A DNA stretch of 64,000 nucleotides from IMG/VR virus record IMGVR_UViG_3300035180_001680. One strand, written 5' to 3'. The notes below the pieces were generated by a model that ran no database searches, was not told the origin of the DNA, and saw only the letters and a list, made by a program, of their open reading frames with translations. This stretch comes from a virus. Taxonomy: Duplodnaviria > Caudoviricetes. Position 1 is the first letter of the stretch, and every line of letters starts with the position of its first letter. The translations under genes and the position numbers were made by a program. Below, one piece after another: positions 1,369 to 63,299 of the stretch.

Positions 1369-1866
1369 TTAAACTTTAATAATTTCCGCAAAACCTTCAC
1401 TTTTTGTTGGCTCTTGGTATGCTTCTCTCATACTCTTGATTACGGAAGAAGGAATACGTTTTCCAGTTTCTTTTTCTCTATTATCCAATCGACGCTGAAG
1501 TTCTGCTGAATCCACACTAAACACCACAGCAATCTTCGTATAACTGTTCGGAACAAGTCCTAACTTCCGACTACGAGACCCAACTGTCATGTTCGTTTGG
1601 TCAATAATAATATTCTGTTTTTTGTTGATAGCTTGTCTCAAATGTATAAACATTTTCTTTTCTGATTCTTTGTAATAACTGTTGAAAGCATCCGAATAAC
1701 TAATACCAGAGTCTTTCGCAATTTGTTCCAAAATATCATCTGTTGAGATAACAACATAATTCTTATGTTTTTTTAACTGAGCGATATATGTGGATTTGCC
1801 TGAACCAGGAAGTCCTACCAACATAACCATCTCAGGTTGAGTTTCTGTGATTTCATTCAATTTCAT
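1369..1866 (-). CDS. P-loop kinase (AAA_33 / polynucleotide-kinase-like)
   Basis: Walker A GLPGSGKST, IIIDQTN, RRLDNR lid. Confidence 0.8.
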   Translation of the reverse strand: MKLNEITETQPEMVMLVGLPGSGKSTYIAQLKKHKNYVVISTDDILEQIAKDSGISYSDAFNSYYKESEKKMFIHLRQAINKKQNIIIDQTNMTVGSRSRKLGLVPNSYTKIAVVFSVDSAELQRRLDNREKETGKRIPSSVIKSMREAYQEPTKSEGFAEIIKV

Positions 1867-8026: not shown

Positions 8027-8773
8027 ATGAAAATTAAACAATTGTCAGACCTCCACCTTGAAGGATATGACATGAAGTATTCTTACGACGGAGAAGATGT
8101 ACTCATTCTGTCTGGTGATATACATACTAGGAACCGACTTGATAAGTTTTTAATTCAAATTCCTTCTAGTGTTAAAATTTTGTATGTAATAGGGAACCAT
8201 GAATTTTACCATTCATTGGTAGATGATGTTATTTCTTATCACACAGAATTAGAAACCAAATTTCCGAACTTTCATTTTCTCAATAACTCTTCAACGAAGA
8301 TTGATGATATTAACTTCTTTGGCGGAACAATGTTTACTCAATTCACATTGTATGGAACCACAAACGTATTGGCCCAACATCATGCGGAACGGGGAATCAA
8401 TGATTTTATTTTAATTCGGGTATCGGATGACCCTCGTATTCTTTGGAAAACACAAAACCATATCGAACAACATGAAATCTTTCGTCGGGAATTGGCTCGT
8501 TGGATTAAAGAAACTGAAGGGCAGAAACGAGTTGTAATTTCTCATTTTGCTCCTCACCCCATAACCGTGGACCCGAAATATGGTTCGAGTGTTTTAAATT
8601 CGTATTTCACTGAAAACATGGAGGAGTTTATGGGTTGGGAAGGTATATGGTTCTATGGACACACTCACAGCAATTTTGATGGAATGATTGGGAAAACGCG
8701 AATTATTTCAAACCAAAAGGGATATGGAAATGAAAGTGTATTGTTTAATCCAAACTTCATAGTGGAGGTTTGA
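8027..8773 (+). CDS. Calcineurin-like metallophosphoesterase
   Basis: SDLH, GD, GNHE, SHFAP, GHTH motifs. Confidence 0.92.
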   Translation: MKIKQLSDLHLEGYDMKYSYDGEDVLILSGDIHTRNRLDKFLIQIPSSVKILYVIGNHEFYHSLVDDVISYHTELETKFPNFHFLNNSSTKIDDINFFGGTMFTQFTLYGTTNVLAQHHAERGINDFILIRVSDDPRILWKTQNHIEQHEIFRRELARWIKETEGQKRVVISHFAPHPITVDPKYGSSVLNSYFTENMEEFMGWEGIWFYGHTHSNFDGMIGKTRIISNQKGYGNESVLFNPNFIVEV

Positions 8774-22785: not shown

Positions 22786-22861
22786 TGGTGCTGTGTGTCG
22801 GATTTGAACTGACGACCTCATGCTTACAAGGCAAGTGCTCTACCAACTGAGCTAACACAGC
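22786..22861 (-). tRNA. tRNA-Thr(UGU)
   Basis: 76-nt cloverleaf, anticodon loop CTTGTAA, TTCAAAT T-loop, encoded CCA. Confidence 0.92.
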
Positions 22862-22868
22862 ATAAATT

Positions 22869-22945
22869 TGGTCGGACATGTAGGATTCGAACCTACGACC
22901 CTTTGCTCCCAAAGCAAATGCGCTACCAGGCTGCGCTAATATCCG
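22869..22945 (-). tRNA. tRNA-Pro(UGG)
   Basis: 77 nt, C1-G72 pair, loop TTTGGGA, TTCGAAT T-loop, CCA. Confidence 0.95.
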
Positions 22946-23242
22946 AATATCTAACTAATAAAATATAACTCAGAAATGATTGGCCTGTGTTTCCAATCCA
23001 CTATGGGTTTACCAGCGCTCTTTCGAGTTGGTTTCCACGTCTGCCAGCGCATGTCGTGCTGAGTTATTAAAGCACCTTCATAGCGACCAGTCTGGAGGGT
23101 TCACCTCAACAAAAGGTTAGCCTCTTTCTCCTGCCAGAGCGAACGATTATTGAAATTCCATGGCAGTGGCTATATCGTTTATCGTTCCTTGTACTACTCT
23201 ATTATATCAGACCTTCGCTATAAAGGCACTTTAATTTTATTT

Positions 23243-23318
23243 TGGAGCGGTGTGTCGGTCTCGAACCGACGGCCTCGAACTTGGAAGGATCGCGCTCTAC
23301 CTACTGAGCTAACACCGC
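23243..23318 (-). tRNA. tRNA-Gly(UCC)
   Basis: 76 nt, loop CTTCCAA, U73 discriminator, CCA. Confidence 0.93.
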
Positions 23319-23332
23319 AATAATACTATTTA

Positions 23333-23405
23333 TGGAGCAGGAAAGTTGGGATTGAACCAACTTCTTTAAGGTGGACCCCTAACGCATTCAATATGCTATT
23401 CCCGC
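23333..23405 (-). tRNA. Atypical tRNA-Gly(UCC)-like gene
   Basis: GCGGGAA/TTCCTGC acceptor stem plus TCCA, normal TTCAATC T-loop, but anticodon loop GGTCCAC lacks U33 and the D-arm is short. Confidence 0.65.
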
Positions 23406-23483
23406 AAAAAGGTATTTCAGATTCGGGGCGATGTTCCCGATAAACGCCTCAAATGAGTTTCTGAAATACACAAAAATGTATTT

Positions 23484-23617
23484 AGTAAAGAATGTAAGAG
23501 GAATCGAAACCTCCAACAGCGACGGTGCGCTGCCTGTAGCCTTGGGTAATTCGACTGGCCAATCTTATTACCTCACATTAGTTCTGGATTGCAGCCCAAA
23601 ACCTAACATTCTTTACT
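23484..23617 (-). ncRNA. Candidate tRNA-like structured RNA (about 134 nt)
   Basis: 12-bp terminal stem, T-arm GAGG-TTTCGATT-CCTC just before the 3' strand, variable-arm-like hairpin; directly behind a TTGACT-N17-TAAAAT promoter. Confidence 0.45.
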
Positions 23618-23723
23618 ACATACACATTTTATAGCAATCTATTTATAAAGTCAACAAAAAGTTTTGGTCTCTATATCCGGTAATCTTGTGAACTACCCAA
23701 TTGTTCAATGGGGGTAGTTCACC

Positions 23724-23828
23724 TTAGATCATATTAATGGAATAAATGATGATCATAGATTAGAGAACTTGAGAACAGTTTGTCCTAAATGTGATTCATT
23801 ATTACCAACTTTTTGTTGTAAAAACTAA
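23724..23828 (+). pseudogene. HNH endonuclease remnant
   Basis: LDHINGINDDHRLENLRTVCPKCDSLLPTFCCKN*; no start codon, and the 5' part is replaced by a hairpin. Confidence 0.75.
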
Positions 23829-23839
23829 AAGTTAAAAAA

Positions 23840-24159
23840 TGGTGCCCCGAGCCAGATTTGAACTGGCACGCTCGAAAGCGAGGGATTTTAAGCGGTTGTG
23901 TCTCGAAGTTTCCTTCAAGCCCGGACTATCTCTTTACCTTCAACATTATTTGGTCAGGTAATGGGCGTTCAAAGCTGGTTATTAAGAGGACTAAACCTCT
24001 CCAGTAGTCTCTACACCTTCAAGTGATGTATCACTTGCTTGGCTCGCGATTGCCATTTTAAAGGCTCTCCCGAATTAACCCATAGTTTACTCAAAGTTTC
24101 CAATTGAGGGGGACTAGCGTCATGCGATCCCTTGTGTCTACCAATTTCACCATCGGGGC
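23840..24159 (-). tRNA. tRNA-Leu(UAA) interrupted by an intron (exons 24127-24159 and 23840-23892)
   Basis: 5' exon GCCCCGATGGTGAAATTGGTAGACACAAGGGAT; 3' exon CTTAAAATCCCT, variable arm, T-arm, CACCA; closely resembles E. coli leuZ. Confidence 0.9.
23893..24126 (-). mobile_element. Group I intron, 234 nt, no ORF
   Basis: Core elements P (AATTCGGGAGA), Q (AATCGCGAGCC), R (GTGTAGAGACTA), S (AAGAGATAGTCC); P3 ATGGG/CCCAT; GAAA-capped P9; terminal G; P1 GGGAT/GTCCC with a U.G pair. Confidence 0.88.
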
Positions 24160-24275
24160 ATTAAATTATAAAAGAACAGTCACACCAAAAACATTTACTT
24201 CTGAGTCATTCTTCTAACTCCTTCTTTACTGGGAGACTATTATATATTAAGTATCCCATAAAGTCAACAAAAATT

Positions 24276-24351
24276 TGGTGGGCCTGGAGGATTACGATAC
24301 CTCGACCTTGGCGTTATGAGCACCCTGCTACTTCCTCTGAGCTACAGGCCC
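24276..24351 (-). tRNA. tRNA with CAU anticodon (Met or Ile2), atypical T-loop
   Basis: 76 nt, loop CTCATAA, CCA end; T-loop reads ATCGTAA instead of TTCRANY. Confidence 0.8.
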
Positions 24352-25159: not shown

Positions 25160-26167
25160 TTAACCTCTTCCGTATTTAAAAAGATATTCATTGCTGACAG
25201 CCTTCCAATGTTCTCGTCCATTAACTTGCTTGTATACTTCTCCTTCTCGGAGTTTACCAGTAAGTTTACTCGTTCCATCTGCCATTGACAACACATCTTG
25301 AACAGAAGTTTCAGGTGGAAACACATACTCTTCGTGAATTACAGGGACGTGCTTAAGTCCAAGGTCTTCACACAATTGACGCCGCTGGTTAGGGGAAAGA
25401 AAACATCCCAACTTAATGTCATATATCGCGAACACGTAGAAGTCTTGACCCTTCAACCCATAATGGTTACCCTGTATACCTTCTCCGATAATTTCACCCT
25501 GAATAATGATATCATCCAAGCCCGTTTCAATCAACCGCTGTTCGATGTTATACTTACGAGCTTGAGCCCACAAAGAGTTACCTTCAGTTTCTCTCAAGTT
25601 CAAGTTCCGAGAACATACGATGAACTCACCATCAATTCGACCGACAGACATCGAGCTACCCTCAAGCTTCTCAGTAACCTCATAAGTTAGTTGCTTCAAT
25701 TCTTCCCAGTTACTAGTGAGATTCTGAATTCGTTCTTCATCTGTCTTGGGAAATACAGATGGAAAAGCTCCCTTAACTACACCAGCCAGCTGAGCTGGGA
25801 TTGGAGGTTCGTACTTGACGATGCCAAGGAGGTCGGTGACATCTTCACCCTCATTGAACACCAACATGGATGTGGGGATGGGGAGAACAAGGCCCTGACT
25901 CAATTGCCCCCTCAATCGAACGGTGCGCAGACGTTCCCCAGAGATACCTTCGTATACAAAAGGAGTTTTATCACCTTTAGTCAGGAAAGGGGCAATGTCG
26001 TGTGGGATGAAGCTATCAACTTCACAGTATATTACAAGGTTACCAGGTTCAAATTCACCTTTTTTGACGACGACTTTCCATCCTCCAAGCAACGCAACTT
26101 CAATAGCGTCAGCATCAGGGATAGGTTGAATGTCATCGATTTTTCGAATAGTAGCAAGATGTCGCAT
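25160..26167 (-). CDS. RNA ligase, DRB0094 / Rnl2-like family
   Basis: N-terminal LATIRKI..I.PIPDAD.IE..GW.VVVKKGEF; motif I TEKLEGSS; QGEIIG, EGEV, KAVSNEYL. Confidence 0.92.
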   Translation of the reverse strand: MRHLATIRKIDDIQPIPDADAIEVALLGGWKVVVKKGEFEPGNLVIYCEVDSFIPHDIAPFLTKGDKTPFVYEGISGERLRTVRLRGQLSQGLVLPIPTSMLVFNEGEDVTDLLGIVKYEPPIPAQLAGVVKGAFPSVFPKTDEERIQNLTSNWEELKQLTYEVTEKLEGSSMSVGRIDGEFIVCSRNLNLRETEGNSLWAQARKYNIEQRLIETGLDDIIIQGEIIGEGIQGNHYGLKGQDFYVFAIYDIKLGCFLSPNQRRQLCEDLGLKHVPVIHEEYVFPPETSVQDVLSMADGTSKLTGKLREGEVYKQVNGREHWKAVSNEYLFKYGRG

Positions 26168-29152: not shown

Positions 29153-29537
29153 ATTGAATACTCCGGATAACGTTCATACACTCGTCATCATCCAACACAA
29201 AGCATTCGCTATCCCCTCCGATCAACTCCAAGGGAACATACTTATACTGCTTCCATGTTCTCTTGATGTGTTGTTCAATCTTGAATGCTTCGTATAGTGT
29301 AGTAGCTCTCTCGTACCGGGAGGTAACTGAGTATACTTTTTTGGACTGAAACCTTTTAGTCACAGACCGCTTCGTAATCCCTATCTTCTGAAACCGCTCT
29401 GATCCTTTACTGAACTCAACGAAGTATACCAGCGCGCTGATGTCTTTGAGTTCGGGTTTCATCTTGAACAGGTGTTCGGTGTACACCTCAACAACTTTTT
29501 GTAGTAATATAGCTAAAACTTCTAAGAGGATCACCAT
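29106..29537 (-). CDS. GIY-YIG / T5orf172-like endonuclease (possible free-standing homing endonuclease)
   Basis: LVYFVEF..FQKIGITKRSV.KRF..A..IEQ.I..GGDSECF; antisense insertion just upstream of the RNA ligase. Confidence 0.6.
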   Translation of the reverse strand: MVILLEVLAILLQKVVEVYTEHLFKMKPELKDISALVYFVEFSKGSERFQKIGITKRSVTKRFQSKKVYSVTSRYERATTLYEAFKIEQHIKRTWKQYKYVPLELIGGDSECFVLDDDECMNVIRSIQSTQLVPIPFSGSFRK

Positions 29538-30663
29538 GAACCAATACCAGACTCAGCTATTCACTGAACTGCAAGCGCTCATCGCTAGCAATGAAGCCTT
29601 TTACGCACAGACGTTCGAGTCGAATGGTCACATCTATAAGATATACAACTATCGGTTAGCCTCATATACCGACTTCCTCGCTCCTTCCGCTTTGGAATCA
29701 AGGGGTGTGATGTTTGAGGTTGACGCTTCCGACGACCCAGTTGAACTGAAAGTTCTCCCTCAACCCAAATTCTTTAACGCCTATGAGAATCCATTCACGA
29801 TGGATCTCGACTTCACTGCAGTTGATGCAATCTACGATAAGCTTGACGGCTCGTTGATGTCTACTTATATGGAAGACGGACAGTTGAAGTTGAAATCTAA
29901 AGGTTCAATCTCTTCTGAACAAGCACTTGCTGCGATGGATTGGTTGGATAATCCTGACCAGGCTATGCTGTATCATAACCTCGCGTCAGCCACAGAGAAG
30001 GGATGGACTATCAATTTGGAGTTCATGAGCCCCAACTATAGGATCGTATTGGGTTACATGAACACTCACTGTAAGGTGTTGAACGCTCGTAACCGTGAAG
30101 ATGGCTCGTTTGTTGAATACGACCTTCTCCAATCGACGTTCGGTGCTCATAACGTGGTCAGTCGAGTGATTGTGGATGATACCAAAACCTTCATTGATAA
30201 CATTCCTGGAATGCAGGATGACATTGAAGGCTATGTGGTTTGGTTGTCTGACGGTCGAGTGGTCAAAATTAAATTGACCAAATATTTAAGCCTGCACCAC
30301 GCGAAAGATTCTGTCAACAATCCTCGTCGATTGTTTGAGTGTATTCTTGATGAAGGTGTTGATGATCTTCGTGGAATGTTCTATACTGATGCTGTTGCAA
30401 TGATGATGATTGATCAAATGCAGGTGAAGGTTGATCATATGTTTAACAGCATGGTAAATGAAGTTGAGACGTTCTACGAAATGAACAAACACCTTGACCG
30501 AAAAGACTACGCTGTTAAAGGTCAGGCTGAAGTTTCACCGATGTATTTCTCTCGTGCAATGAATTTGTATCTTGGGAAGAGTCCTGACTACAAACAGTTC
30601 ATGAAGAGTAAGTGGAAAGAATTGGGATTTAAAGATATGAAAATTGAAGAGACTGGAGAATGA
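29536..30663 (+). CDS. rnlA: T4-type RNA ligase 1
   Basis: YNYRLASY.DF..ALESRGVMFE, KFFN, motif I KLDGSL, EGYV, KIK..YL.LH; start at 29536 after GAGGA. Confidence 0.9.
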   Translation: MNQYQTQLFTELQALIASNEAFYAQTFESNGHIYKIYNYRLASYTDFLAPSALESRGVMFEVDASDDPVELKVLPQPKFFNAYENPFTMDLDFTAVDAIYDKLDGSLMSTYMEDGQLKLKSKGSISSEQALAAMDWLDNPDQAMLYHNLASATEKGWTINLEFMSPNYRIVLGYMNTHCKVLNARNREDGSFVEYDLLQSTFGAHNVVSRVIVDDTKTFIDNIPGMQDDIEGYVVWLSDGRVVKIKLTKYLSLHHAKDSVNNPRRLFECILDEGVDDLRGMFYTDAVAMMMIDQMQVKVDHMFNSMVNEVETFYEMNKHLDRKDYAVKGQAEVSPMYFSRAMNLYLGKSPDYKQFMKSKWKELGFKDMKIEETGE

Positions 30664-35327: not shown

Positions 35328-36056
35328 ATGAGCCTCTCTGCGGAACAAAAACAATTGGTAATTCGAACCGTTGCCCATTTCACAGAAATGGGCAACAAGA
35401 AATTCGGTATCAACATGGCTGTTCCTACAACTCTTTTTAATAAGAGAGGAACTACTGCTGGTGAAGCCTCTTATAGTACACACACAGTCAATTTCAATGC
35501 TGATATGTGTGCTCAAAACTTCGATGAGTTTATCAACCAGGTTGTTCCACATGAGGTTGCCCACCTCGTTACACATGAAAAGTACAGCAAAGGTACCAAA
35601 CGATTCAACAACGTAAAAGCTCATGGACATGAATGGCGTCATGTTATGGTTACATTTGGCTTGTCACCTGACCGTTGTCATAAAATGGACGTCAGTGAGT
35701 TCAAACAACAACGAACCAAATATGAATATGTGTGCCCATCGTGTGGTCGCAGCTACAAAGTTGGTGGAAAGATTCACAACAATATTCAGGGTGGTAAAGT
35801 TTACGTCTGTAAATGCAAAGGTCGTTTATCACCAAATAGTGTGGTAGGTGTCCAAGCACCTACTGCCAAAAAGAAAGTGGAAACTACTACTGTCACCACT
35901 TCACGTGAAGGTTCCAAAAAGGATCGTGCAGAACGATTATACGCTGATTTCTCAACCAAAAGCCGTGAATTCATCATTACACTATTCATGAGTGAGTTGG
36001 ACATGACCAAGGCAGGTGCGTCCACTTACTACGCAAATTGTAAGAAGAAGTTTTAA
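35328..36056 (+). CDS. SprT-like zinc metalloprotease with a Zn knuckle and a C-terminal HTH-like domain
   Basis: HEVAH (HExxH), HGHEW, CPSC..CKC; C-terminal ELDMTKAGASTYYANCKKK. Confidence 0.85.
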   Translation: MSLSAEQKQLVIRTVAHFTEMGNKKFGINMAVPTTLFNKRGTTAGEASYSTHTVNFNADMCAQNFDEFINQVVPHEVAHLVTHEKYSKGTKRFNNVKAHGHEWRHVMVTFGLSPDRCHKMDVSEFKQQRTKYEYVCPSCGRSYKVGGKIHNNIQGGKVYVCKCKGRLSPNSVVGVQAPTAKKKVETTTVTTSREGSKKDRAERLYADFSTKSREFIITLFMSELDMTKAGASTYYANCKKKF

Positions 36057-40284: not shown

Positions 40285-40349
40285 GTATACCTCTCCCCTG
40301 AATCTTGATTTCATAAAGACATTATACCTCAAACTGTCCCAAAAGTCAA
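40285..40349 (-). promoter_or_regulatory. Promoter plus G-rich leader element, copy C (back-to-back with a + promoter)
   Basis: TTGACT-N17-TATAAT, then GTCTTTATGAAATCAAGATTCAGGGGAGAGGTATAC; the -35 lies in the palindrome AGTCAACTGTTGACT. Confidence 0.82.
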
Positions 40350-40413
40350 CTGTTGACTCTTTACCTCAAATGTTGGACAATGTCCTCATTGAATAATTCA
40401 ACTGGAGATAGAA

Positions 40414-40665: not shown

Positions 40666-41377
40666 TAGACAGACACTACTGTTTACTAGTAAGCAACTTT
40701 CAAAAATAATCACTTTCAGAACCTATCTCATTTTATTTTTCACATATCTGAATCCTCTCTCTTCAGATAGCTCTTTAAGGGGAAGCATCATGCTTCCCCT
40801 CTTTTTTGAGCGTAGCACTCACTCCAAACACAAAGACACAAAGATGTACACATAACACAAATGGGAAGATAATTGACTACCCAGCAGCAAGGAATGCTAC
40901 CAATTATAGACATTCATACAACACACAGCAGTGTCTGAAACGTACAACAGTATTGTATTGGGTTGATGATTACTGAATGAGGGTAAGTGTACTCAATGTA
41001 TTGAACTGATTATTCAACCACACCAACAATTATGAAGTGTGTACCTTTATTCTGTCTACTTGGTAAAGGGAAACGTGATACCCGACACACATGGGTAAAC
41101 ATGGAAGGTTGGGTTGTTGGGTACAATGAGAGACGGTATGGTAAGACAGTGTTCACATACTGAATGTAATCACTGTGGTGAACAACCTACAAAGAGAGCA
41201 AAAATTTGGACCCTTTTCAGTTATAATCAAAGTTATATACCTATAACTTTTACTGATCAACACGAGTTCTTATCAAATTTGTGTATCTCCCGATCAGGTT
41301 TACTTATCACGACGGGGGGTTGAAAAATGTGGGGTGGGGTGAGTAAGTGAGGTGAGATTAGAGTGGTCTTGTTTGAA

Positions 41378-41495
41378 AGTCAACTGTTGATCTTTTTATT
41401 TTTCGTTAAAACTGACCTGTACTCGAGATCGTATACCTCTCCCCTGAATCTTGATTTCATAAAGACATTATACCTCAAACTGTCCCAAAAGTCAA
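41378..41495 (-). promoter_or_regulatory. Promoter plus G-rich leader element, copy D
   Basis: Identical to copy C over about 65 bp; continues GAGTACAGGTCAGTTTTAACGAAAAATAAAAAGATCAACAGTTGAC as in copy E. Confidence 0.82.
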
Positions 41496-41560
41496 CAGTT
41501 GACTTTTTCTTAAAAGGGTAATACAATATCTTTTCTAAAACGTTATAAAGAGAGAAAGAA

Positions 41561-41755
41561 ATGACAGTACTACAACTGATCAAGTCTCTGATGTCTGTCG
41601 AAGACAAATCCATTAATGTAATTATTACGGTTGAGTCGGGGTTGAGTTGTTTATCTTCAAGTGATGTGTTCGGTCAAGAAACATACAGAGAAGATGAAAA
41701 TGGTGAGTCGTATAACGTTTTTGTTATCGAAGGTGAAGAGACAAGTTTCGAGTAA
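41561..41755 (+). CDS. Small acidic hypothetical protein
   Basis: Behind TTGACT-N17-TACAAT (41499-41527). Confidence 0.55.
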   Translation: MTVLQLIKSLMSVEDKSINVIITVESGLSCLSSSDVFGQETYREDENGESYNVFVIEGEETSFE

Positions 41756-41791
41756 TTATCTTTAAAGAAAAAGTCAACGATGAAATGTTCG

Positions 41792-41885
41792 TTGACTTTT
41801 TCCCCTTTTAGAGAGATAATGTACTCGAAATCAGGAATTCAGGGGAGAGGTATGGAGTTTAGAGTACAGGTCAGTTTTAACGAAA
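41792..41885 (+). promoter_or_regulatory. Promoter plus leader copy E; left arm (41810-41885) of a 76-bp inverted repeat
   Basis: TTGACT-N17-GATAAT, then GTACTCGAAATCAGGAATTCAGGGGAGAGGTATGGAG. Confidence 0.85.
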
Positions 41886-42182
41886 AATAAAAAGATCAAC
41901 AGTTGACTTCTTTAAGTTCTTGGTGTTCGAATTTCAAAACATACTCTATACAAAAAGTCAACTGATTAATTCTGAAACATACTTTATACAAAAAGTCAAC
42001 TTTTATTAATTAAAATAGATGGGGTATTGTGTTTTTGTGTGGGTGTGGTAGAATGGGGGTGTGGTGTGTAGGGGGTGTAAAGTATTGTTTTTAGTGAGAA
42101 AGTTGTGGAGTTTTTTGAAAGTTTGTAGTAGAATGTTTGTGTTGTTGAGAGAGAAGTTAATTTGATTTTTAGGAGAGTGAAA

Positions 42183-42755
42183 ATGTTGAAAATGATTAAT
42201 AATGAAATGAATGTGGGTTTTGATGAATTAGTTAATGTGTTTGTTAGTAAGTTTGAAGAAAAGTTGTATGTAAAGAAAGAGAGTTTGAGTAAGAGTATTA
42301 AAGAAGTAAAGAGTAATGTTGAAAAGTTGAAAAAAGAAGTATTGGGTAAAGTTAATTTGAGTAAGTATGAAATTGTTATTGATGTATTAGGTTTGAAATG
42401 TAAAGTTAATAAAGATAGTATAAGTGTTTATTTTAGTGAAGATAGAAAGAAAAGTAGTTATATTGATTTTGTTGTTTATATGTATGATGTAAATGATAAG
42501 AGTTTGGGGTATTGTGTTAATAGTAAGAGAATTAATGTTGATATAGATGTTGATGATGTTGTTGAATATGAGAGTTATATTAGTGAATTAAATAAGTTGA
42601 ATGAAGAATTAATTGAAGTGGTAAATGAAATAAAGAGTATTAGTAGAAAGGAAAGGAGTATTAGGAGTAAGATTAGTGAAATGAAATTGAAAGAGTGTGG
42701 TTTAGAAGAATTGTTGGGAAATGATGAAATAATGAAATTGATTGAATTGAAATAA
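42183..42755 (+). CDS. C-free gene 1 (190 aa, terminal coiled coils), unknown function
   Basis: AGGAG at 42171 then ATG at 42183; no A, P, T, H or Q residues. Confidence 0.8.
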   Translation: MLKMINNEMNVGFDELVNVFVSKFEEKLYVKKESLSKSIKEVKSNVEKLKKEVLGKVNLSKYEIVIDVLGLKCKVNKDSISVYFSEDRKKSSYIDFVVYMYDVNDKSLGYCVNSKRINVDIDVDDVVEYESYISELNKLNEELIEVVNEIKSISRKERSIRSKISEMKLKECGLEELLGNDEIMKLIELK

Positions 42756-42806
42756 AATAGAATTGTGGTGGTTAGGGAGTTTTTTAATTATATAGAGGAT
42801 TAAAAA

Positions 42807-43388
42807 ATGAGTAATGAAATGGTTTATGTTATTAATGTGAATAATGAATTTGTTTTGGAATGTAAAAAAGTATTGATTGAAGATGTTGTTGATGTGTTTT
42901 ATAGTAGAGAAGAAATGAAAGAAATGGGATGGAGATATAGAGATGTGAGTTTAAAAAAAGGTAGAATTAAAGAGTATTTAAATGGTTTAGTAAAAGAAAT
43001 GAAAGATAGTGGAAAAAAGAGTATTAAATTGAGTAGTTTGTTTGTTGGTGTTTGTAAGAGTTATGGTTTAAAGATTAGTGAATATGTTGAAGGTGTGAGG
43101 AGATTAAATAATAAGTTGTTTTTGTATGAAAAGAAAAAGAATAGTTATAGTAAAAGAGATGTAATTAATTTTGTGGATATGGGAGTAATGTTAATAAGAA
43201 AGAAGTATGGGATTGAATTAGATATAAAGAATGTGAGTTATAGTTATGATGGTTGTGTGAAAGTTGTAAAAGATTTGATTAGTTTATATGAATTGTGTAG
43301 TTATAAAGGAAGTAGGTTTATAGTGGAAAAAGAATGGATTGAAATGATTTATAATAAAGAAGGGGAATTGTTTAAGAAGAAAGAATGA
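42807..43388 (+). CDS. C-free gene 2 (193 aa, basic), unknown function
   Basis: GAGGA site; no A, P, T, H or Q residues. Confidence 0.8.
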   Translation: MSNEMVYVINVNNEFVLECKKVLIEDVVDVFYSREEMKEMGWRYRDVSLKKGRIKEYLNGLVKEMKDSGKKSIKLSSLFVGVCKSYGLKISEYVEGVRRLNNKLFLYEKKKNSYSKRDVINFVDMGVMLIRKKYGIELDIKNVSYSYDGCVKVVKDLISLYELCSYKGSRFIVEKEWIEMIYNKEGELFKKKE

Positions 43389-43400
43389 AATAAAAAGTTG

Positions 43401-43429
43401 TTGTGTTTTTTGTGTGGGTGTGGTAGAAT
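43401..43429 (+). promoter_or_regulatory. C-free promoter (second copy at 42027-42054)
   Basis: TTGTGT-N17-TAGAAT with an extended -10 TG; the motif TTGTGTTTTTGTGTGGGTGTGGTAGAAT is duplicated. Confidence 0.65.
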
Positions 43430-43448
43430 AGTGGTGTTGATAATATGA

Positions 43449-43691
43449 ATGGAAAAAGAAATGAAAGTTGAAATTATTAGTGTTATGTTTGAAGATAATA
43501 TTAGTAATTTTTGTGGTGGAGGTTTTTGTAAAGTTGAATGTAGTGGAGAGAATATTGAAGATTGTGTAGTGAATGATTATTATAAAGGAGATTGTGAATT
43601 TGATTTAGATATAGATTTAAGATATAAGGTAGAAGAAGATGTTTATTATTTGAGAAATAGAGAGAGATTGTTAATTATTAAAATAATTTAA
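43449..43691 (+). CDS. C-free gene 3 (80 aa, acidic, Cys-containing), unknown function
   Basis: Behind the C-free promoter; no A, P, T, H or Q residues. Confidence 0.65.
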   Translation: MEKEMKVEIISVMFEDNISNFCGGGFCKVECSGENIEDCVVNDYYKGDCEFDLDIDLRYKVEEDVYYLRNRERLLIIKII

Positions 43692-43708
43692 AAAGTTGTT
43701 GACTTTTT

Positions 43709-43740
43709 AAAAATGACCTGACCTAAGTCAAGTCATTTTT
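43709..43740. terminator. Bidirectional terminator-like hairpin closing the C-free cassette
   Basis: AAAAATGACCTGAC-CTAA-GTCAAGTCATTTTT. Confidence 0.7.
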
Positions 43741-43768
43741 TATTTTTATAAAAGTTGACTTTTATTCA

Positions 43769-43862
43769 TTTCGTTAAAACTGACCTGTTCTCTAAACTCC
43801 ATACCTCTCCCCTGAATTCCTGATTTCGAGTACATTATCTCTCTTTTTGACCCTAAAGTCAA
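43769..43862 (-). promoter_or_regulatory. Promoter plus leader copy F; right arm (43769-43844) of the 76-bp inverted repeat
   Basis: Reverse complement of 41810-41885 with one mismatch; -35 TTGACT at 43862-43857. Confidence 0.85.
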
Positions 43863-44089
43863 CAGTTGACCAAATCCCCTAATTCAGATACAATGTCCTC
43901 ATTGAAATCAAAAATTATGTTTCATTTGGAGTAAATGGTATCATCTGTGTCGGTTCCGGCACCTGCCCTGAAATTGAGGGCACCGAAGAAGTTTTGGAAT
44001 ACATTGAAAGAATTTGTAACTAATTGTTGTCCTCAACCACAGTTTGTGTGACAATGGTCTCACTGAAACGTTAATTGAAAGGAAACAAA

Positions 44090-44518
44090 ATGACCAACAC
44101 CAAGACCTCCAAGAAATCGATTTTCATTTCCGCTTTCAACGCCCTGCCCGTTGACATGAAGCGCAAAGAAGCTCTTGCAATTCTCAGTGAACAATGTGGC
44201 CTTTCGATGGCAGGTGCAAGTACTTATTACGCCAACTGCAAGAGTGGTCTGTGGTCAACTGGAACTGTTCAAAAAGAATCGTATCTTGAAATGATCGCTT
44301 TGGTCACTGGTGAATATATTGCAAAGCATCGTGCAAAAGAACAGGCCAACAGGGCCGTTCAAAGTGTCACACAAAAATCTGAAAAGATCAACCTTGAAGT
44401 GATGACCGGTTCCGAACTGGTTGCTTTGTACAACAGTAAGGTCAGCGATGCCCAACAGATCGTCAAGTTCCGCAACAAGGCTGAAGGAATTAAACGAGTT
44501 GCCGCCCTTATCGGCTGA
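44090..44518 (+). CDS. Protein with an N-terminal HTH-like 'AG(A)STY..N' domain (paralogue of 21279-21668)
   Basis: CGLSMAGASTYYANCKSGLW; C-terminal ELVALYN..KFRNKAEGIKRV. Confidence 0.75.
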   Translation: MTNTKTSKKSIFISAFNALPVDMKRKEALAILSEQCGLSMAGASTYYANCKSGLWSTGTVQKESYLEMIALVTGEYIAKHRAKEQANRAVQSVTQKSEKINLEVMTGSELVALYNSKVSDAQQIVKFRNKAEGIKRVAALIG

Positions 44519-44593
44519 AACTTTGAAATAAGTGTTGACATCTTATCTATAATAGGGTAAGATGTCTTCACTGTAACGAGAAAGAGATGAGCA

Positions 44594-44902
44594 ATGTCCA
44601 ATATAACTTTTCATAAAGAAGTTCGTACCATTTGTAGTAACTATGGTTGGGATGTTTACAGTACATACAACGACAAGGGTGTGACCCATCGAAGGGTATC
44701 GTATTCGAGGGTACCATATTTGAAGGTACCGTATTCGAAGTTCAATTGTAATGTTCCTGAAAAGATCAAGGCACATATCAAACAAGAAGTTGAACAACTG
44801 TTGTCCAATCATGGAGTGACTGGTCAAGTGTATTGGTTTGAGGCTCATTCGTATTATGGTAATGGACCCTACGACAAACTTTGTATCAAGATTCCTTTGT
44901 AG
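44594..44902 (+). CDS. Hypothetical protein
   Basis: 102 aa, behind a TTGACA promoter. Confidence 0.55.
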   Translation: MSNITFHKEVRTICSNYGWDVYSTYNDKGVTHRRVSYSRVPYLKVPYSKFNCNVPEKIKAHIKQEVEQLLSNHGVTGQVYWFEAHSYYGNGPYDKLCIKIPL

Positions 44903-45037
44903 ATAGTTACAATGGCGAAGGTGCTCTATGGTGATAGGGCACCTTTGAAATAAAATTAAACAGTTGACTTTGCTATGCGTATGATGTATAATATATGTGT
45001 ATTAGGGGAGGGATGATTTTTTCCAATTTAAGTTGGT

Positions 45038-45189
45038 CCAATCTATCATTAACTATCTTCCAATCTATCATTAATCATTCTCCAATCCAATCCAATCCAA
45101 TCCAATCTATCATTAACTATCTTCCAATCTATCATTAACTATCTTCCAATCTATCATTAATCATTCTCCAATCTATCATTAACTATCAC
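45038..45189. repeat. 22-bp tandem repeat x6 with an internal (CCAAT)4 run, in a G-free stretch
   Basis: CCAATCTATCATTAA(CTATCTT/TCATTCT) at 45038, 45060, 45102, 45124, 45146 and 45168; no G from 45037 to 45210. Confidence 0.93.
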
Positions 45190-45788
45190 CCCACAATTAT
45201 TTTCCAACCCGCGTCACGATTTTTTTGTCACCCTAAAATAAACACCGCACTGTTTTTCCCATATGTGCAAAAATTTTTTGGCAAATTTTTTTCCCAAAAT
45301 CCAAAATTGTTTATAATCAACAGTTGACATATTCCCCTCTATGAGATATAATATGCTTCATCTCATGCGTTATAGGGAAAATGTAAATGTACACAATACG
45401 TGTATCACCTTTTTTCACATATTAGGTGCTCTCATGATGGGAACGATTTGGGGAGGTATAGTATCTCTATTTGTTCTGTTTGTTAGTGGAAACGAACAAC
45501 TCTTCTTTAAGAGGACTCTATACTTGATGGGAATTGGTGCAGTGGTATCACTCTTGGTATATTTAACCGCAAATGGTGTATTGGTTTGGACATAAGGAGA
45601 TATTAATATGTGGCTACCAAATTGGATTTATAATAAACTCCCAATGATTTATTTCATATTGGGATGTTGTTGTACATTGTTTACTCCAAATGTATTTGGA
45701 TACTTTTCAGGAGGTATATTCTTTTTGATTTGTTCATTGATTGTATACCTCCGTTTTAATAACAGATACGAAGAATAGGAGAAGTAGA

Positions 45789-58357: not shown

Positions 58358-59380
58358 TCACCCAACAAAGTGTTCGACGATAAACCAATGGTCTTCAAAC
58401 ATGTTTTCACCCTGCAATGCTCCCAAGGGAACCCACATTGCTTTTTCAGCGTCATCATCACCCTTAACCTTTGGTAGTGGACCTGGTGGTAATTCTATGA
58501 AAAAAGCATGAGAAATAGTTCTACCTCGCAAACTTCGGTTAGGGTCATCAAACACTTTCATACCTTTAATGTTTCCCCGAAGTACAGGTATTGGAACTTT
58601 AATTTTTGTTTCTTCACGTAGTTCTCTCAACATTGCATCTTCTAAACGTTCGTTTTGGTTAATGAACCCACCCGGAAGTGCCAACAAACCTTTTCCTGGA
58701 GATGAACGACGTTTAATCAACAAAACGTGTCCTGACTGAACAACGACAGCATCTGTGGTAACGAATGTCGGAGGATATGGAGCTGGTAACCAAGCTTTGT
58801 GATATTTTTTGATATATTCGTAGTCTTCCGAAAGTATAGTAAATTCAGGTGTTGACTTAAATAATTCAAGTTTTGCATAAACTGGCTCGGGAACGAGTGC
58901 TTGAAGGAATTTAAGATTTTTGCCCTCAAAGTAAAGTTCACGAAGATCAGTTGCATTAACATCTTCGTTTAATTCATGTTCCACTGGACTCCACTGTGGG
59001 AACATCTTAAGGTAATACGAACTTTCGTCTTTATCATATCCGATGATTGCAATCTTTGGACGGTCTAACCAAAACTCTCCAAGCATAGCCTCACTAACAG
59101 CTTCTTGGACTGCAGTAGTCCACTTTTGGTCGCTTGGTTGGTCGTTGACTTTGGTAATTTTGATTCGGTCTAAATTTCCACCAAAATCCTGACTTATAAT
59201 CATTGCTGCACGCTCTGAAGCAGTCCAAGGATTTTTTGGAGTTCGAGACGAATTTGCGCTACCAATAATAACAATTAGTTTGGTAGCAATTGACAAAGCT
59301 GTTTCAAATACTTGTTTGTGTCCAATGTGGAATGGTTGAAACCGTCCAATAAACACAGCATAATCGTACTGTTTTTGCAT
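58358..59380 (-). CDS. Bifunctional NMN adenylyltransferase / ADP-ribose pyrophosphatase (NadM-Nudix)
   Basis: GRFQPFHIGH, NATDLR, Nudix box GGF...NE.LEDA..REL.EET; start at 59380 after AAGGAG. Confidence 0.93.
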   Translation of the reverse strand: MQKQYDYAVFIGRFQPFHIGHKQVFETALSIATKLIVIIGSANSSRTPKNPWTASERAAMIISQDFGGNLDRIKITKVNDQPSDQKWTTAVQEAVSEAMLGEFWLDRPKIAIIGYDKDESSYYLKMFPQWSPVEHELNEDVNATDLRELYFEGKNLKFLQALVPEPVYAKLELFKSTPEFTILSEDYEYIKKYHKAWLPAPYPPTFVTTDAVVVQSGHVLLIKRRSSPGKGLLALPGGFINQNERLEDAMLRELREETKIKVPIPVLRGNIKGMKVFDDPNRSLRGRTISHAFFIELPPGPLPKVKGDDDAEKAMWVPLGALQGENMFEDHWFIVEHFVG

Positions 59381-59503
59381 AGAAAACTCCTTTCTATATG
59401 TTGAGCATCTCTGTCTTTCAGAGATGTTTATATTTATACAACAGTTTACTGTTGACGTCAACTAATTTTACTATATACTAAAGATTAATTTAAAGAAGAC
59501 GAT

Positions 59504-61838: not shown

Positions 61839-63299
61839 ATGTTGGAACTTGTAAAACCATTTAATTTCATTCTTGCTGTCGATTCGTATAAAGCTGGTCA
61901 CTATCTTGAACTTCCTCCGGAAACTGAATACACTTATTCAGCAATTGTTCCACGTAAATCAAGTAGTTACGCTACAGAAATTGTTGCGATGGGTCAAACA
62001 TTCGTAGCTAACATTCTGGCTAAGGTTCGCATTACGATGGATATGATCGATGAAGCAGAAATTGAAATCACTGAACAGGGGTATCGTTTTAACCGTCGGG
62101 ATTGGGAGATGATTGTTCAAGAGTTTGACGGTCGCCTTCCAATTGCAATGTATGCAGTTGAGGAAGGGCGAGTAGTTAAACCTCAAACTCCTGTAATGGG
62201 GTTGGTTAACACCCATCCACGGTTTGCTTGGCTTCCTGCTTATGTTGAAAGTTGGGTTCAAGGAACCGTGTGGAAGATGTCCACTGTTGCATCGATCTGC
62301 CGCCGTGCACGACAAATTTTTAAAGATCGTATGGAACGAACAGGTTCCAATATGGCGATGTTAGATTACAAACTTCACAATTTCGGTGACCGAGCAGCTG
62401 GTTCTCCAGAAGAAGCTGTGGTTATTGCTGGTATTGCACATGCTACATCTTTTAGTGGTAGTGACAGTCTACGAACCAATAGTTATATTAAAAAACTATA
62501 TCGTACATCAAAGGCGTATTTGTCTTCTGTTGAAGCGTTTGAACACAGTACAATTTGTGCAAACTCTAATGCAGAAACAAAAGATGACTTCGGGGCTGCA
62601 GTTGTAGCTGTGGAACGCTTGAAAGATGTGGTCAATACTGCCAAAAACGGAATTGGTATTCCTGTGGTAAGTGTGGTCATTGACACATACGATGATGAAC
62701 GGTTTGTTGGTGAGTACCTTGGAACAATTCTCAAAGACGAGATTGTCAATAGTGGTGGAATGATGGTTGTGCGTCCTGACAGTGGAGATCCAACCGTCCA
62801 ACCCGGAATCATCGGAAATATATTGGCAGAAAAATTTGGTTATACTGTAAACGAGGCTGGATACAAAGTTCTTTCTCCGACAGTTGGTGTTCTTCAAGGT
62901 GATGGTATTCGAATCAGTACTCTAGAGAGTGTGATCGACGGATGGATCGCCGCTGGTTTCAGTGTTGATAACTTTCTCACTGGAATGGGAAGTGGAACCA
63001 CGAACGACTGCCAACGCGATGACTTCAGTTGGAGTATGAAGGCTATTGCAAATCAGGTGAATGGAACTTGGCATCGATTACTCAAAGATCCGAAAACTGA
63101 CTCTGGTAAAAAATCTCTTTCGGGTTTGATTCGTTGTCGTGAAAACGAGAAGGGTGAATTGGAAGTGTTTGATGCTCTAATCGAAGGTATTCACAGGTTT
63201 GAACATTCAGAGCCAGGTTGGAGACTTTGGTCGAGGGACGGATATCAGACGTTCAGTCAAAGTTTTGATGAGGTCCGAGCACGTGCTCAGGTTGATTAA
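61839..63299 (+). CDS. nadV: Nicotinamide phosphoribosyltransferase
   Basis: DSYKAGH, KLHNFGDRA, FSGSDS, EHS, SVVIDTYD, VVRPDSGDP, QGDGI, KDPKTDSGKKSLSG. Confidence 0.9.
   Translation: MLELVKPFNFILAVDSYKAGHYLELPPETEYTYSAIVPRKSSSYATEIVAMGQTFVANILAKVRITMDMIDEAEIEITEQGYRFNRRDWEMIVQEFDGRLPIAMYAVEEGRVVKPQTPVMGLVNTHPRFAWLPAYVESWVQGTVWKMSTVASICRRARQIFKDRMERTGSNMAMLDYKLHNFGDRAAGSPEEAVVIAGIAHATSFSGSDSLRTNSYIKKLYRTSKAYLSSVEAFEHSTICANSNAETKDDFGAAVVAVERLKDVVNTAKNGIGIPVVSVVIDTYDDERFVGEYLGTILKDEIVNSGGMMVVRPDSGDPTVQPGIIGNILAEKFGYTVNEAGYKVLSPTVGVLQGDGIRISTLESVIDGWIAAGFSVDNFLTGMGSGTTNDCQRDDFSWSMKAIANQVNGTWHRLLKDPKTDSGKKSLSGLIRCRENEKGELEVFDALIEGIHRFEHSEPGWRLWSRDGYQTFSQSFDEVRARAQVD

What the first reader, a model, noticed from the sequence alone, without database searches (positions are those of the whole stretch)
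42001..43702. A 1.7-kb cytosine-free cassette encoding three intact proteins: genes written in three letters
Seen: from 42001 to 43702 the + strand has no C. It still carries ORFs of 190, 193 and 80 aa with no Ala, Pro, Thr, His or Gln; Ser is only AGT, Leu only TTR and Arg only AGR. ORFs 1 and 2 have normal ribosome-binding sites. In random A/G/T sequence of equal composition a stop arises about every 9 codons, so these ORFs look selected. Wholesale C>T conversion of ordinary genes would have turned CAA/CAG/CGA into stops. Established: prokaryotic viperins make ddhCTP, which terminates RNA synthesis; MazF-type interferases cut C-containing motifs such as ACA; a palindromic restriction site containing G must also contain C on the same strand. 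Inference, as competing hypotheses: (a) the mRNA can be made during CTP depletion or ddhCTP poisoning, so the products may be counter-defence proteins against C-nucleotide immunity; (b) the DNA is immune to nearly all G/C-containing restriction sites, cytosine methylation or deaminases on + and guanine modifiers on -, like a protected first-expressed region; (c) a persistently single-stranded strand (R-loop or origin) has lost C by deamination, with the ORFs kept by selection. I know of no described system like this.
Basis: partly seen in the sequence, partly recalled or inferred. Interest (0 to 1): 0.97.

Follow-up and report, generated by a model that had tools for sequence, protein, structure and literature searches.

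The report
Phage genes written without cytosine
An uncultured giant phage carries a mobile three-gene early cassette whose coding strand has no cytosine over 1.7 kb; related phages keep the same rule, so selection acts on the DNA or RNA itself, for a reason not yet known.

Summary
Positions 42001-43702 (+) contain no C; the next longest C-free run in the window is 73 nt. The tract holds three real ORFs.

It is not an artefact. Seven independent metagenome contigs, representing two strains, carry it. The strains differ by 57 substitutions, and none of them creates a C.

ORF1 and ORF2 form a conserved gene pair. Most related huge phages encode the pair with ordinary codons (about 15% C). Other lineages have 10%, 5%, 2% or 0% C, and one 6.4-kb contig has three separate C-free blocks. 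The amino-acid replacements are conservative (T to S, Q to K/E, P to D/K/G/E), so this is recoding under selection and not deamination.

The block runs from the promoter region to the first arm of the terminator. It lies between repeated early promoter/terminator units, and a co-occurring strain lacks it.

Best reading (about 40%): the operon is transcribed without CTP, so CTP shortage or C-analogue chain terminators cannot stop it. DNA-level protection, meaning a template strand without G, is the main rival; rewritten promoter DNA favours it.

The protein functions are unknown. I found nothing in print. Earlier notes of this scan report similar C-free tracts in other viral genomes.

The parts
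42001..43702 (+). Cytosine-free block. The sense strand uses A, G and T only, so the template strand has no G.
   Evidence: the same block appears in L002 (identical) and L003/L005 (strain 2, 1,707 nt)
42183..42755 (+). ORF1, 190 aa. Predicted antiparallel coiled-coil hairpin with a small beta domain. It belongs to a family of more than 80 metagenomic phage proteins, most of them normally coded.
42807..43388 (+). ORF2, 193 aa. Well-folded alpha/beta plus helical protein (pLDDT 93). It has about 40 distant homologues, most of them normally coded. It is the conserved neighbour of ORF1.
43449..43691 (+). ORF3, 80 aa (76 aa if read from the second ATG). Small Cys-rich protein with no homologue beyond near-identical copies.
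42049..42054 (+). -10-like TAGAAT of the first internal promoter copy. It is missing in strain 2.
42129..42134 (+). -10-like TAGAAT upstream of ORF1 (TATAAT in strain 2). There is no TTGACA-type -35 element.
43424..43429 (+). -10-like TAGAAT upstream of ORF3, the third copy of the 31-nt promoter repeat.
43709..43740 (.). Hairpin between an A-run and a T-run, read as a bidirectional terminator. The first Cs after the block lie here and in the TTGAC just before it.
   Evidence: (I16)
41810..41900 (+). Left copy of the roughly 91-nt repeat unit. Its consensus promoter (TTGACT-17-GATAAT at 41792-41820) faces the cassette.
   Evidence: (I1)
43754..43844 (-). Right, inverted copy of the repeat unit. 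Its promoter (43862-43834) faces the cassette and is stopped by the terminator.
   Evidence: (I1)
41791..43753 (.). Segment absent from a co-occurring strain. Contigs join 41790 to 43754 within the repeated GTTGACTTTT.
   Evidence: table 5: the joint is seen in runs X2 and X3

Best explanation
The block is a real, selected and mobile early-gene cassette of an uncultured phage of about 338 kb from sediments and microbial mats. It holds a conserved two-gene module, ORF1 (coiled coil) and ORF2 (alpha/beta plus helical), which related huge phages encode with ordinary codons. It also holds a small Cys-rich ORF3. All three genes have been recoded so that the sense strand has no C from the promoter region to the first arm of the terminator.

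My preferred mechanism is that selection acts on transcription of this operon. RNA polymerase can make the whole tricistronic mRNA from ATP, GTP and UTP alone. Expression would therefore be unaffected by CTP shortage or by C-analogue chain terminators such as viperin's ddhCTP. In these models every C costs the same, which would explain a drive all the way to zero.

Several by-products follow. The mRNA offers no site to C-requiring RNases. It has no YC dinucleotides for Rho. It is nearly structure-free.

Shown here: the absence of C, ongoing purifying selection against C, protein-preserving recoding, a graded series among relatives, the transcription-unit boundaries and the presence/absence polymorphism. 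Inferred: the selective agent and the role of the proteins, which I take to be early host-takeover or counter-defence functions.
For: 1. Selection on the nucleic acid. None of 222 NNY codons ends in C (log10 P = -36). Between the two strains there are 57 substitutions and 47 gap columns in the cassette, and none introduces a C. In the flanks 61 of 142 substitutions involve C.

2. Recoding of normal genes. ORF2 has about 40 homologues and ORF1 more than 80. Most carry 25-49 A/P/T/H/Q residues, but some carry 0-7. The same gene pair is normally coded in L013. It is C-free in L009 (1,536 nt), L014 and L016.

3. A graded series. C content of the pair is 15% (L013), 8-10% (L011), 5-6% (L017), about 2% (L015) and 0%. 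Third-position Cs are lost first, and in all three partly depleted cassettes the first gene is slightly poorer in C than the second. This fits a cost per C.

4. Boundaries. Each C-free block ends at the first C-bearing sequence of a terminator or the next promoter, after the last stop codon. A polymerase without CTP would therefore finish all the ORFs.

5. Early-type, fast-evolving accessory context. The block sits between consensus sigma-70 promoters and terminators. A co-occurring strain lacks it. ORF2 differs between strains by 21 nonsynonymous and 1 synonymous change.

6. The proteins are real. pLDDT is 93 for ORF2 and 82.6 for ORF1.

7. Low RNA structure. MFE per 150 nt is -11.4 kcal/mol, against -27 to -32 in neighbouring genes.
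Against: 1. Promoter DNA that a given promoter does not itself transcribe is also C-free, for 50-130 nt upstream of the -10 elements. The usual TTGACT -35 is replaced by TTGTGT or TTGTTT. A spacer motif that reads CCCTAAT in the normally coded relative appears as its reverse complement ATTAGGG in C-poor cassettes. An RNA-only constraint does not predict this unless upstream promoters read through.

2. The nearest strong upstream promoter in the window (41792-41820) would give a leader that contains C.

3. From my own knowledge, the published effect of prokaryotic viperins was shown on T7 RNA polymerase, and host multisubunit polymerase may be less sensitive. I know of no described defence that depletes CTP.

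4. No RNA data exist for this phage.

5. The function of the proteins is unknown.
Confidence: 0.4

Rival explanations
1. Protection at the DNA level. The selected property is that the sense strand has no C, or equivalently that the template strand has no G. A base-specific activity on DNA then cannot damage, modify or stall on the strand that matters. Candidate activities are a dC-specific single-strand nuclease such as T4 endonuclease IV, a cytosine deaminase acting on the exposed non-template strand, an Alc-like terminator that senses cytosine in DNA, or guanine modification or attack such as 7-deazaguanine chemistry.
For: The promoter regions are rewritten too. The -35 element loses its C, and the CCCTAAT spacer motif is flipped to ATTAGGG. 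The block covers DNA upstream of the -10 elements. Base-specific phage activities on C-containing DNA are documented: T4 Endo IV (PMC1635256, PMC2175332) and T4 Alc (PMC2988021). Unchecked scan notes say this genome encodes DpdA-like, FolE2, QueD and QueE genes outside my window. The normally coded relative has no TGT/DpdA match in its 257-kb record.
Against: The neighbouring early genes have consensus sigma-70 promoters and ordinary C and G content on both strands, and are presumably expressed from the same DNA. The template strand of the cassette still carries 26% C and the sense strand 26% G, so any agent must be specific to both strand and base. I could not verify the deazaguanine genes. 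The correlation with the relative rests on one genome.
Confidence: 0.27
2. Escape from a C-dependent ribonuclease. The mRNA lacks every C so that a host abortive-infection RNase, or the phage's own host-shutoff RNase, cannot cut it. MazF/ChpBK-type interferases, whose motifs contain C, are examples. This would be a natural version of the ACA-less 'single-protein production' trick.
For: The same facts of selection, recoding and transcription-unit boundaries apply. The window encodes RNA-repair enzymes: two RNA ligases, a kinase and a phosphoesterase. This shows the phage meets RNA-directed defences.
Against: Known interferases read motifs of 3-7 nt. Removing those motifs would be enough, and removing every C is not needed. 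An RNA-only constraint does not explain the rewritten promoter DNA. I know of no RNase that cuts at any C in bacteria (own knowledge).
Confidence: 0.12
3. A Rho-proof and structure-free mRNA. Removing C abolishes Rho loading sites (YC dinucleotides) and all G-C pairing. The long untranslated leaders and the operon are then read through and translated efficiently.
For: Leaders of 80-180 nt precede the first ORF of each block. MFE per 150 nt is about one third that of neighbouring genes. A C-free RNA has no YC dinucleotides, which follows directly from the sequence.
Against: Rho and folding depend on C density, so going from 5% to 0% should add little. Yet purifying selection removes every C: 0 of 57 substitutions create one. 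Unchecked scan notes report C-free genes in an archaeal virus, where Rho does not exist.
Confidence: 0.08
4. A mutational or structural by-product. One version is strand-biased deamination, as in GRINS-like skew. Another is an R-loop-forming replication origin that happens to retain ORFs.
For: GC skew is 1.0, and there are G-runs in the leader of the window strain. The phage encodes an RNase H.
Against: A (38%) and T (36%) are equal, so C has not become T. Replacements need C to A or C to G changes and conserve chemistry. The G-runs and the first promoter are missing in strain 2. One 6.4-kb contig has three such blocks, all coding. GRINS-type skew also depletes A (PMC8256042, as cited in a scan note), and that is not seen here.
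Confidence: 0.03
5. An assembly, chemical-conversion or synthetic-DNA artefact.
For: None found.
Against: The block appears in JGI and Logan assemblies of at least seven samples from several studies, as two diverged strains, with sharp boundaries inside longer contigs. Distant homologous cassettes in other studies show the same property.
Confidence: 0.01

Closest known systems
PeSL (promoter-early stem-loop) mobile regulatory cassettes of T4-type phages (PMC2839356, PMC4122927)
   Same: Short repeated units carry a consensus early promoter and a stem-loop and flank small accessory ORFs in a variable region. Closely related strains differ by insertion or deletion of the ORFs, with joints inside the repeats.
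   Different: PeSLs explain how the cassette moves, not why it lacks C. This phage is not a known T4-type phage: no match in 50,697 phage records. The repeat units here are about 91 nt and contain a short leader. No three-letter coding has been reported for PeSL cassettes.
Motif avoidance in first-expressed phage DNA (T5 first-step-transfer region, T7 early region, GATC-free phage genomes); own knowledge
   Same: Selection acts on the sequence itself and not on the protein, in early genes. A C-free strand cannot hold any palindromic site that contains G or C.
   Different: Known cases remove particular 4-8-bp motifs on both strands. Here one base is removed entirely from one strand over 1.7 kb, including synonymous sites and amino-acid choice. 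Motif avoidance would not require this.
ACA-less mRNAs resistant to MazF (engineered single-protein production; natural MazF-site-free genes); own knowledge
   Same: A message is made blind to a sequence-specific attack by recoding, while the protein is kept.
   Different: Those cases involve a triplet or longer motif and do not restrict the amino-acid alphabet. Here all Cs are gone, five amino acids are lost, and promoter DNA is affected too.
T4 Alc and T4 endonuclease IV, phage factors that act only on cytosine-containing DNA (PMC2988021; PMC1635256; PMC2175332)
   Same: They show that single-base (dC) discrimination during transcription, or on single-stranded DNA, exists in phage-host conflicts. 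An agent of this kind would select against every C.
   Different: T4 escapes by modifying all its cytosines, not by deleting them. No homologue of either protein was identified here, and their strand preference relative to transcription is not known to me.
Purine loading (Szybalski's rule) and GRINS nucleotide skew (PMC8256042, cited from a scan note)
   Same: The mRNA-synonymous strand is purine-rich (64% A+G) and has extreme GC skew.
   Different: Those are statistical biases, or mutation-driven skews that enrich G and T. This is an absolute exclusion of one base, with A the commonest base and with conservative amino-acid replacement.

Membership tests
PeSL-type mobile promoter/terminator cassette | Accessory ORFs are flanked by repeated short units that carry an early sigma-70 promoter and a stem-loop. 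| tested here: met
   There are four copies of a 73-91-nt unit with TTGACT-17-(G/T)ATAAT promoters, and hairpins between A- and T-runs.
PeSL-type mobile promoter/terminator cassette | Close strains differ by presence or absence of the cassette, with the joint inside the repeat. | tested here: met
   Contigs in runs X2 and X3 join 41790 to 43754. Strain 2 lacks 41509-41889.
PeSL-type mobile promoter/terminator cassette | The element resides in a T4-type (Tquatrovirinae) genome and matches the PeSL consensus. | not tested
   No comparison with PeSL sequences was made. The cassette region (window 41300-44600) and the normally coded ORF1 homologue P0048 match no record in the phage collection.
Restriction-site or PAM avoidance | Specific short motifs are depleted, on both strands, while overall base composition stays normal. 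| tested here: not met
   One base is absent from one strand. G stays at 26% on that strand and C at 26% on the other.
MazF-site-free (ACA-less type) mRNA | A defined 3-7-nt cleavage motif is absent while C is kept elsewhere. | tested here: not met
   Every C is absent, including at 222 synonymous NNY sites.
Deamination or GRINS-type mutational skew | C to T (and A to G) changes enrich T and G, with non-conservative codon changes and stops from CAR/CGA. | tested here: not met
   A is 38%, T 36% and G 26%. T goes to S/N, Q to K/E and P to D/K/G/E. The ORFs are intact and predicted to fold.
Counter-measure to viperin (ddhCTP) or CTP depletion | The transcript can be completed without incorporating C. 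| tested here: met
   There is no C from 42001 to 43702. All three stop codons precede the first C.
Counter-measure to viperin (ddhCTP) or CTP depletion | The host carries a viperin or CTP-depleting system, and native expression outperforms a C-recoded version under it. | not testable with these tools
   The host is unknown, no RNA runs were listed, and no experiment was possible.
7-deazaguanine (Dpd/TGT) DNA modification linked design | The genome encodes a DpdA/TGT-type transglycosylase and the preQ0 pathway. | not testable with these tools
   This is claimed by unchecked scan notes for regions 58-68 kb outside my window. No whole genome is held. The normally coded relative G001 has no TGT match.
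R-loop-primed replication origin (T4 oriF type) | A promoter is followed by a G-rich non-template strand and an unwinding element, and coding is not required. | tested here: inconclusive
   GC skew is 1 and leader G-runs exist in one strain but are lost in the other. The blocks are fully coding and occur three times in 6.4 kb.

The most novel reading that the evidence does not exclude
Base exclusion is a general, undescribed tactic. Phages, and possibly some cells, write a chosen set of early genes in a three-letter alphabet. These genes can then still be expressed when one nucleotide, or one base in the template, is withheld, poisoned or attacked. The conserved ORF1-ORF2 module of this clade of huge phages is a function that must work in exactly that phase. 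The graded series from 15% to 0% C across lineages would record an ongoing arms race.
Probability: 0.4. Interest if true: 0.95.

Novelty: categorically new. Interest (0 to 1): 0.88.

Why it matters
These are natural, folded proteins built from 15 amino acids and encoded in three letters. That shows how far a gene can be recoded under pressure on the nucleic acid.

Removing one base completely from whole transcription units, and keeping it out in diverged phages, points to a base-specific pressure in virus-host conflict. The pressure could be CTP supply, C-analogue terminators, or C/G-directed enzymes acting on DNA or RNA. It has not been recognised or named.

The contrast between the native cassette and a synonymously C-recoded one gives a direct and cheap experimental handle for finding that pressure. 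The graded series of relatives gives a comparative handle.

C-free cassettes could also serve as tools for expression under nucleotide stress.

Tried and rejected
- Family and fold searches for the three proteins and their normally coded homologues gave nothing informative: Pfam, PHROGs, PADLOC, NCBIfam, the Atlas, PDB Foldseek and VIA-align.
- The cassette region and the normally coded ORF1 homologue found no match in 50,697 phage records. ORF2 and the neighbouring 147-aa protein found nothing in IMG/VR.
- A C-free-coded ORF1 motif found nothing in IMG/VR. In metagenome contigs it found three loci.
- ORF3 has no homologues beyond near copies.
- No RNA run was listed, so expression is untested.
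- No whole genome is held, so the DNA-modification genes reported by other notes could not be checked.
- The G-free array at 45037-45210 shows no complementarity to the cassette.
- The tree of the ORF1 family could not tell one origin of C-free coding from several. At least two changes are needed, composition bias affects the C-free rows, and the bootstrap had not settled.
- ORF1-ORF2 binding has weak support only: score 0.32 against a best control of 0.01. That mark was reached by 58 of 80 solved complexes and 2 of 110 mismatches, but passes at 0.60 or under are more often wrong than right. The runs agree in at least 77% of contacts, and partner pLDDT is at least 73.
- Eight literature searches found no description of C-free genes: cytosine-free; devoid of cytosine; lacking cytosine and C-less; cytosine-depleted; ddhCTP with codon; viperin with chain termination; PeSL; T4 Alc and Endo IV.
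- Rejected readings: artefact, deamination, and simple restriction-site avoidance. Reasons are given under the rival explanations.
Full report
**Observation.** The + strand from 42001 to 43702 has 645 A, 611 T, 446 G and no C. The next longest C-free run in the 64-kb window is 73 nt. At the window's C frequency (0.185), log10 P for such a run is -151.

The block holds ORFs of 190, 193 and 80 aa. In 5,000 shuffles of the block the longest ATG-ORF averaged 34 aa and never exceeded 101 aa. The proteins have no Ala, Pro, Thr, His or Gln. Ser is only AGT, Leu only TTR and Arg only AGR. None of 222 NNY codons ends in C, although neighbouring genes use C endings in 17-49% of such codons (log10 P = -36). 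The constraint therefore acts on the nucleic acid and not on tRNA choice, because NNT and NNC codons share a tRNA.

**Not an artefact.** The window belongs to a contig of about 338 kb. It has tRNAs, two RNA ligases, NAD-salvage genes, RNase H, an SprT-like gene and a tail fibre. No whole genome is held.

The cassette proteins occur on seven further contigs from JGI and Logan assemblies of sediment and microbial-mat samples from several studies. L001, L002 and L006 are the window's strain. L003, L004, L005 and L007 are a second strain. Every one of them is C-free over the cassette, 1,707 nt in L003.

The two strains are about 93% identical in the cassette, against 96-98% in four of the five flank segments compared and about 90% in the repeat-rich left flank. 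They differ by 57 substitutions and 47 gap columns in the cassette. None of the 57 substitutions involves C, whereas 61 of 142 flank substitutions do. Starting from a C-free sequence and using the flank spectrum, I estimate that about a quarter of new substitutions should create a C. The chance of 0 in 57 is then about 1e-8. That is my own arithmetic on the counts. Selection against C is therefore ongoing.

**What the genes are.** ORF2 has about 40 distant homologues, at 26-41% identity, in a library of 1.8 billion representatives. Most contain 22-49 A/P/T/H/Q residues, but P0016 and P0045 contain none, and P0035 and P0031 contain 6 and 10.

In a normally coded IMG/VR phage (L013, from a 257-kb contig), the ORF2 homologue is followed directly by an ORF1 homologue. 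ORF1 and ORF2 are thus a conserved pair. The ORF1 family has more than 80 members whose A/P/T/H/Q counts run 0, 1, 5, 7, 14, 14, 14, 17 and upward to 49.

The pair is again C-free in an unrelated set of samples. In L009 the C-free run is 1,536 nt and the gene order is swapped. It is also C-free in L014, and its ORF1 homologue lies in a nearly C-free tract (runs of 468 and 318 nt) in L016. L014 is a 6.4-kb contig with three separate C-free blocks (1,276, 1,444 and at least 1,006 nt). These hold six ORFs and are separated by ordinary C-containing genes.

Measured on DNA, C content of the pair is 15% in L013, where the next gene has 21%. It is 8-10% in L011, 5-6% in L017, about 2% in L015, and 0% here. 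Third-position Cs disappear first.

At columns where normal members conserve T, Q, P or A, the C-free members carry S/N, K/E, D/K/G/E or V/L/C. These replacements are chemically conservative and need C to A or C to G changes. Base composition is simply the genome's composition with C removed: A 38%, T 36%, G 26%. This is protein-preserving recoding, not C to T deamination.

Both proteins are predicted to fold with confidence: pLDDT 93 for ORF2 and 82.6 for ORF1. ORF1 is an antiparallel coiled-coil hairpin with a small beta domain. ORF2 has no convincing structural relative, with Z below 5. No family library names them. A complex prediction gave only weak support: 0.32 against a best control of 0.01. 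ORF3 has no homologues.

Between the two strains ORF2 shows 21 nonsynonymous changes, 1 synonymous change and a 7-codon insertion. ORF1 shows 13 nonsynonymous and 5 synonymous changes. ORF2 is therefore evolving fast at the protein level, although the counts are small.

**Anatomy.** The block begins just after a repeated AAAAAGTCAAC element. It ends at the TTGAC that precedes a hairpin between an A-run and a T-run (43709-43740). The first Cs after the three stop codons lie there. The same holds in L009 and L014, where C-free runs stop at the first C-bearing arm of a terminator hairpin.

Inside the block each gene has a -10-like TAGAAT or TATAAT (42049, 42129, 43424) without a TTGACA-type -35. 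In the normally coded relative the same genes have TTGACT-N17-TATAAT/TAGAAT promoters with CCCTAAT in the spacer. In C-poor and C-free cassettes the -35 reads TTGTCT, TTGTTT or TTGTGT, and the spacer motif appears as its reverse complement ATTAGGG. The C-free state also extends 50-130 nt upstream of the -10 elements.

Around the block lie four copies of a 73-91-nt unit. Each has a consensus promoter (TTGACT-17-GATAAT/TATAAT), and two of them face the cassette from either side. Contigs in runs X2 and X3 join 41790 directly to 43754, so a co-occurring strain lacks the cassette. In X3 that contig has about ten times the word depth of the cassette contigs, although contig depths are only a rough guide. 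This is the behaviour described for PeSL promoter/stem-loop cassettes of T4-type phages (PMC2839356, PMC4122927).

**Mechanism.** Any explanation must account for seven features:
- the polarity, in which the sense strand always lacks C;
- coverage of whole transcription units;
- a graded series ending at exactly zero;
- continuing removal of every new C;
- promoter DNA that is also affected;
- an early, mobile, fast-evolving context;
- neighbouring early genes that are ordinary.

Models with a constant cost per C fit the series and the zero end-point. My preferred model is independence from CTP during transcription. The whole tricistronic RNA can be made from ATP, GTP and UTP, and a polymerase short of CTP, or poisoned by a C-analogue terminator, would stall only after the last stop codon. 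The slight rise in C from the first to the second gene in all three partly depleted cassettes agrees with this. So do unchecked notes from this scan, which report a promoter-anchored C-free gradient in a podophage and C-free genes in an archaeal virus and in a bacterial sigma-factor family. I did not test those notes.

The rewritten promoter DNA counts against an RNA-only constraint. It favours a DNA-level agent that is specific to both base and strand. Known examples of single-base discrimination are T4 endonuclease IV, which cuts single-stranded DNA at dC (PMC1635256, PMC2175332), and T4 Alc, which terminates transcription only on cytosine-containing DNA (PMC2988021). Scan notes claim this genome has a 7-deazaguanine pathway. 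If so, the cassette's template strand would be the only unmodified template nearby. I could not verify this, and the one normally coded relative I could search has no TGT/DpdA match.

C-motif RNases and Rho avoidance are weaker explanations, because neither needs the last few Cs removed. The mRNA is, as a consequence of its composition, almost structure-free: -11.4 against -27 to -32 kcal/mol per 150 nt. Deamination, an R-loop origin and artefact are rejected on composition, on the replacement spectrum, on strain comparison and on independent assemblies.

**Novelty.** Eight full-text searches found no description of genes or operons lacking one base. One methods paper states that long tracts missing one nucleotide are essentially absent from natural nucleic acids (PMC6526412, abstract seen). 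Earlier notes of this scan report similar tracts on other DNA, so the phenomenon is probably general. What this window adds is a clean case with three supports: normally coded homologues, a graded series, and two strains that show ongoing selection.

**Verdict.** The feature is real, selected and undescribed. The mechanism is open between transcription-level and DNA-level base exclusion.

Noticed in passing
window 45037-45210 (and L003 3915-4167): The + strand has a 174-nt G-free tract made of 22-bp tandem units and CCAAT repeats. It lies just downstream of a consensus promoter (TTGACT-17-TATAAT, 44964-44992). In strain 2 the tract is 253 nt. It shows no complementarity to the C-free cassette. 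The lack of G may simply follow from expansion of a G-free unit.
   Followed up: partly
window 40285-40362, 41377-41449, 41810-41900, 43754-43844: There are four copies of a promoter-plus-leader unit, each with a strong sigma-70 promoter and a tiny ORF (MEFR...). Two inverted copies converge on the cassette. They probably mediate cassette gain and loss by recombination.
   Followed up: partly
L014 991-2266 and 5402-6407: Two further C-free blocks in another phage encode four unrelated small proteins. One of them ends in a run of Cys and Lys residues (CCCKCKCCCCKCC). C-free coding is therefore not limited to the ORF1-ORF2 pair.
   Followed up: partly
L013 7965-9268: Even in the 'normally coded' relative, the ORF2-ORF1 pair has 15% C against 21% in the next gene. 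The pair may be under mild C-avoidance throughout the family.
   Followed up: partly
L008 1322-1428: A scaffold gap (a run of N) with C-containing sequence and a duplicated 19-nt stretch interrupts the C-free ORF1 homologue. L009 and L010 lack it, so it is probably a scaffolding error.
   Followed up: no
window 1369-1866, 8027-8773, 25160-26167, 29440-30663, 22786-24351: An RNA-repair style gene set is present: a P-loop kinase, a metallophosphoesterase, an Rnl2-like ligase and an Rnl1-like ligase. They lie beside a cluster of four tRNA genes (Thr, Pro, Gly, Met). This suggests the phage faces tRNA- or RNA-cleaving defences.
   Followed up: no
window 58358-59461 and 61839-63299: An NMNAT-Nudix fusion and a NAMPT-like gene form an NAD salvage pair of the kind used against NAD-depleting defences.
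   Followed up: no
window 45-1151: An IMPDH/GMP-reductase-like ORF has a weak match to an intein splicing domain.
   Followed up: no
window 35328-36056 and L013 5917-6738: An SprT-like metalloprotease gene lies upstream of the ORF1-ORF2 pair in both phages. This suggests the cassette sits in a syntenic variable region.
   Followed up: no
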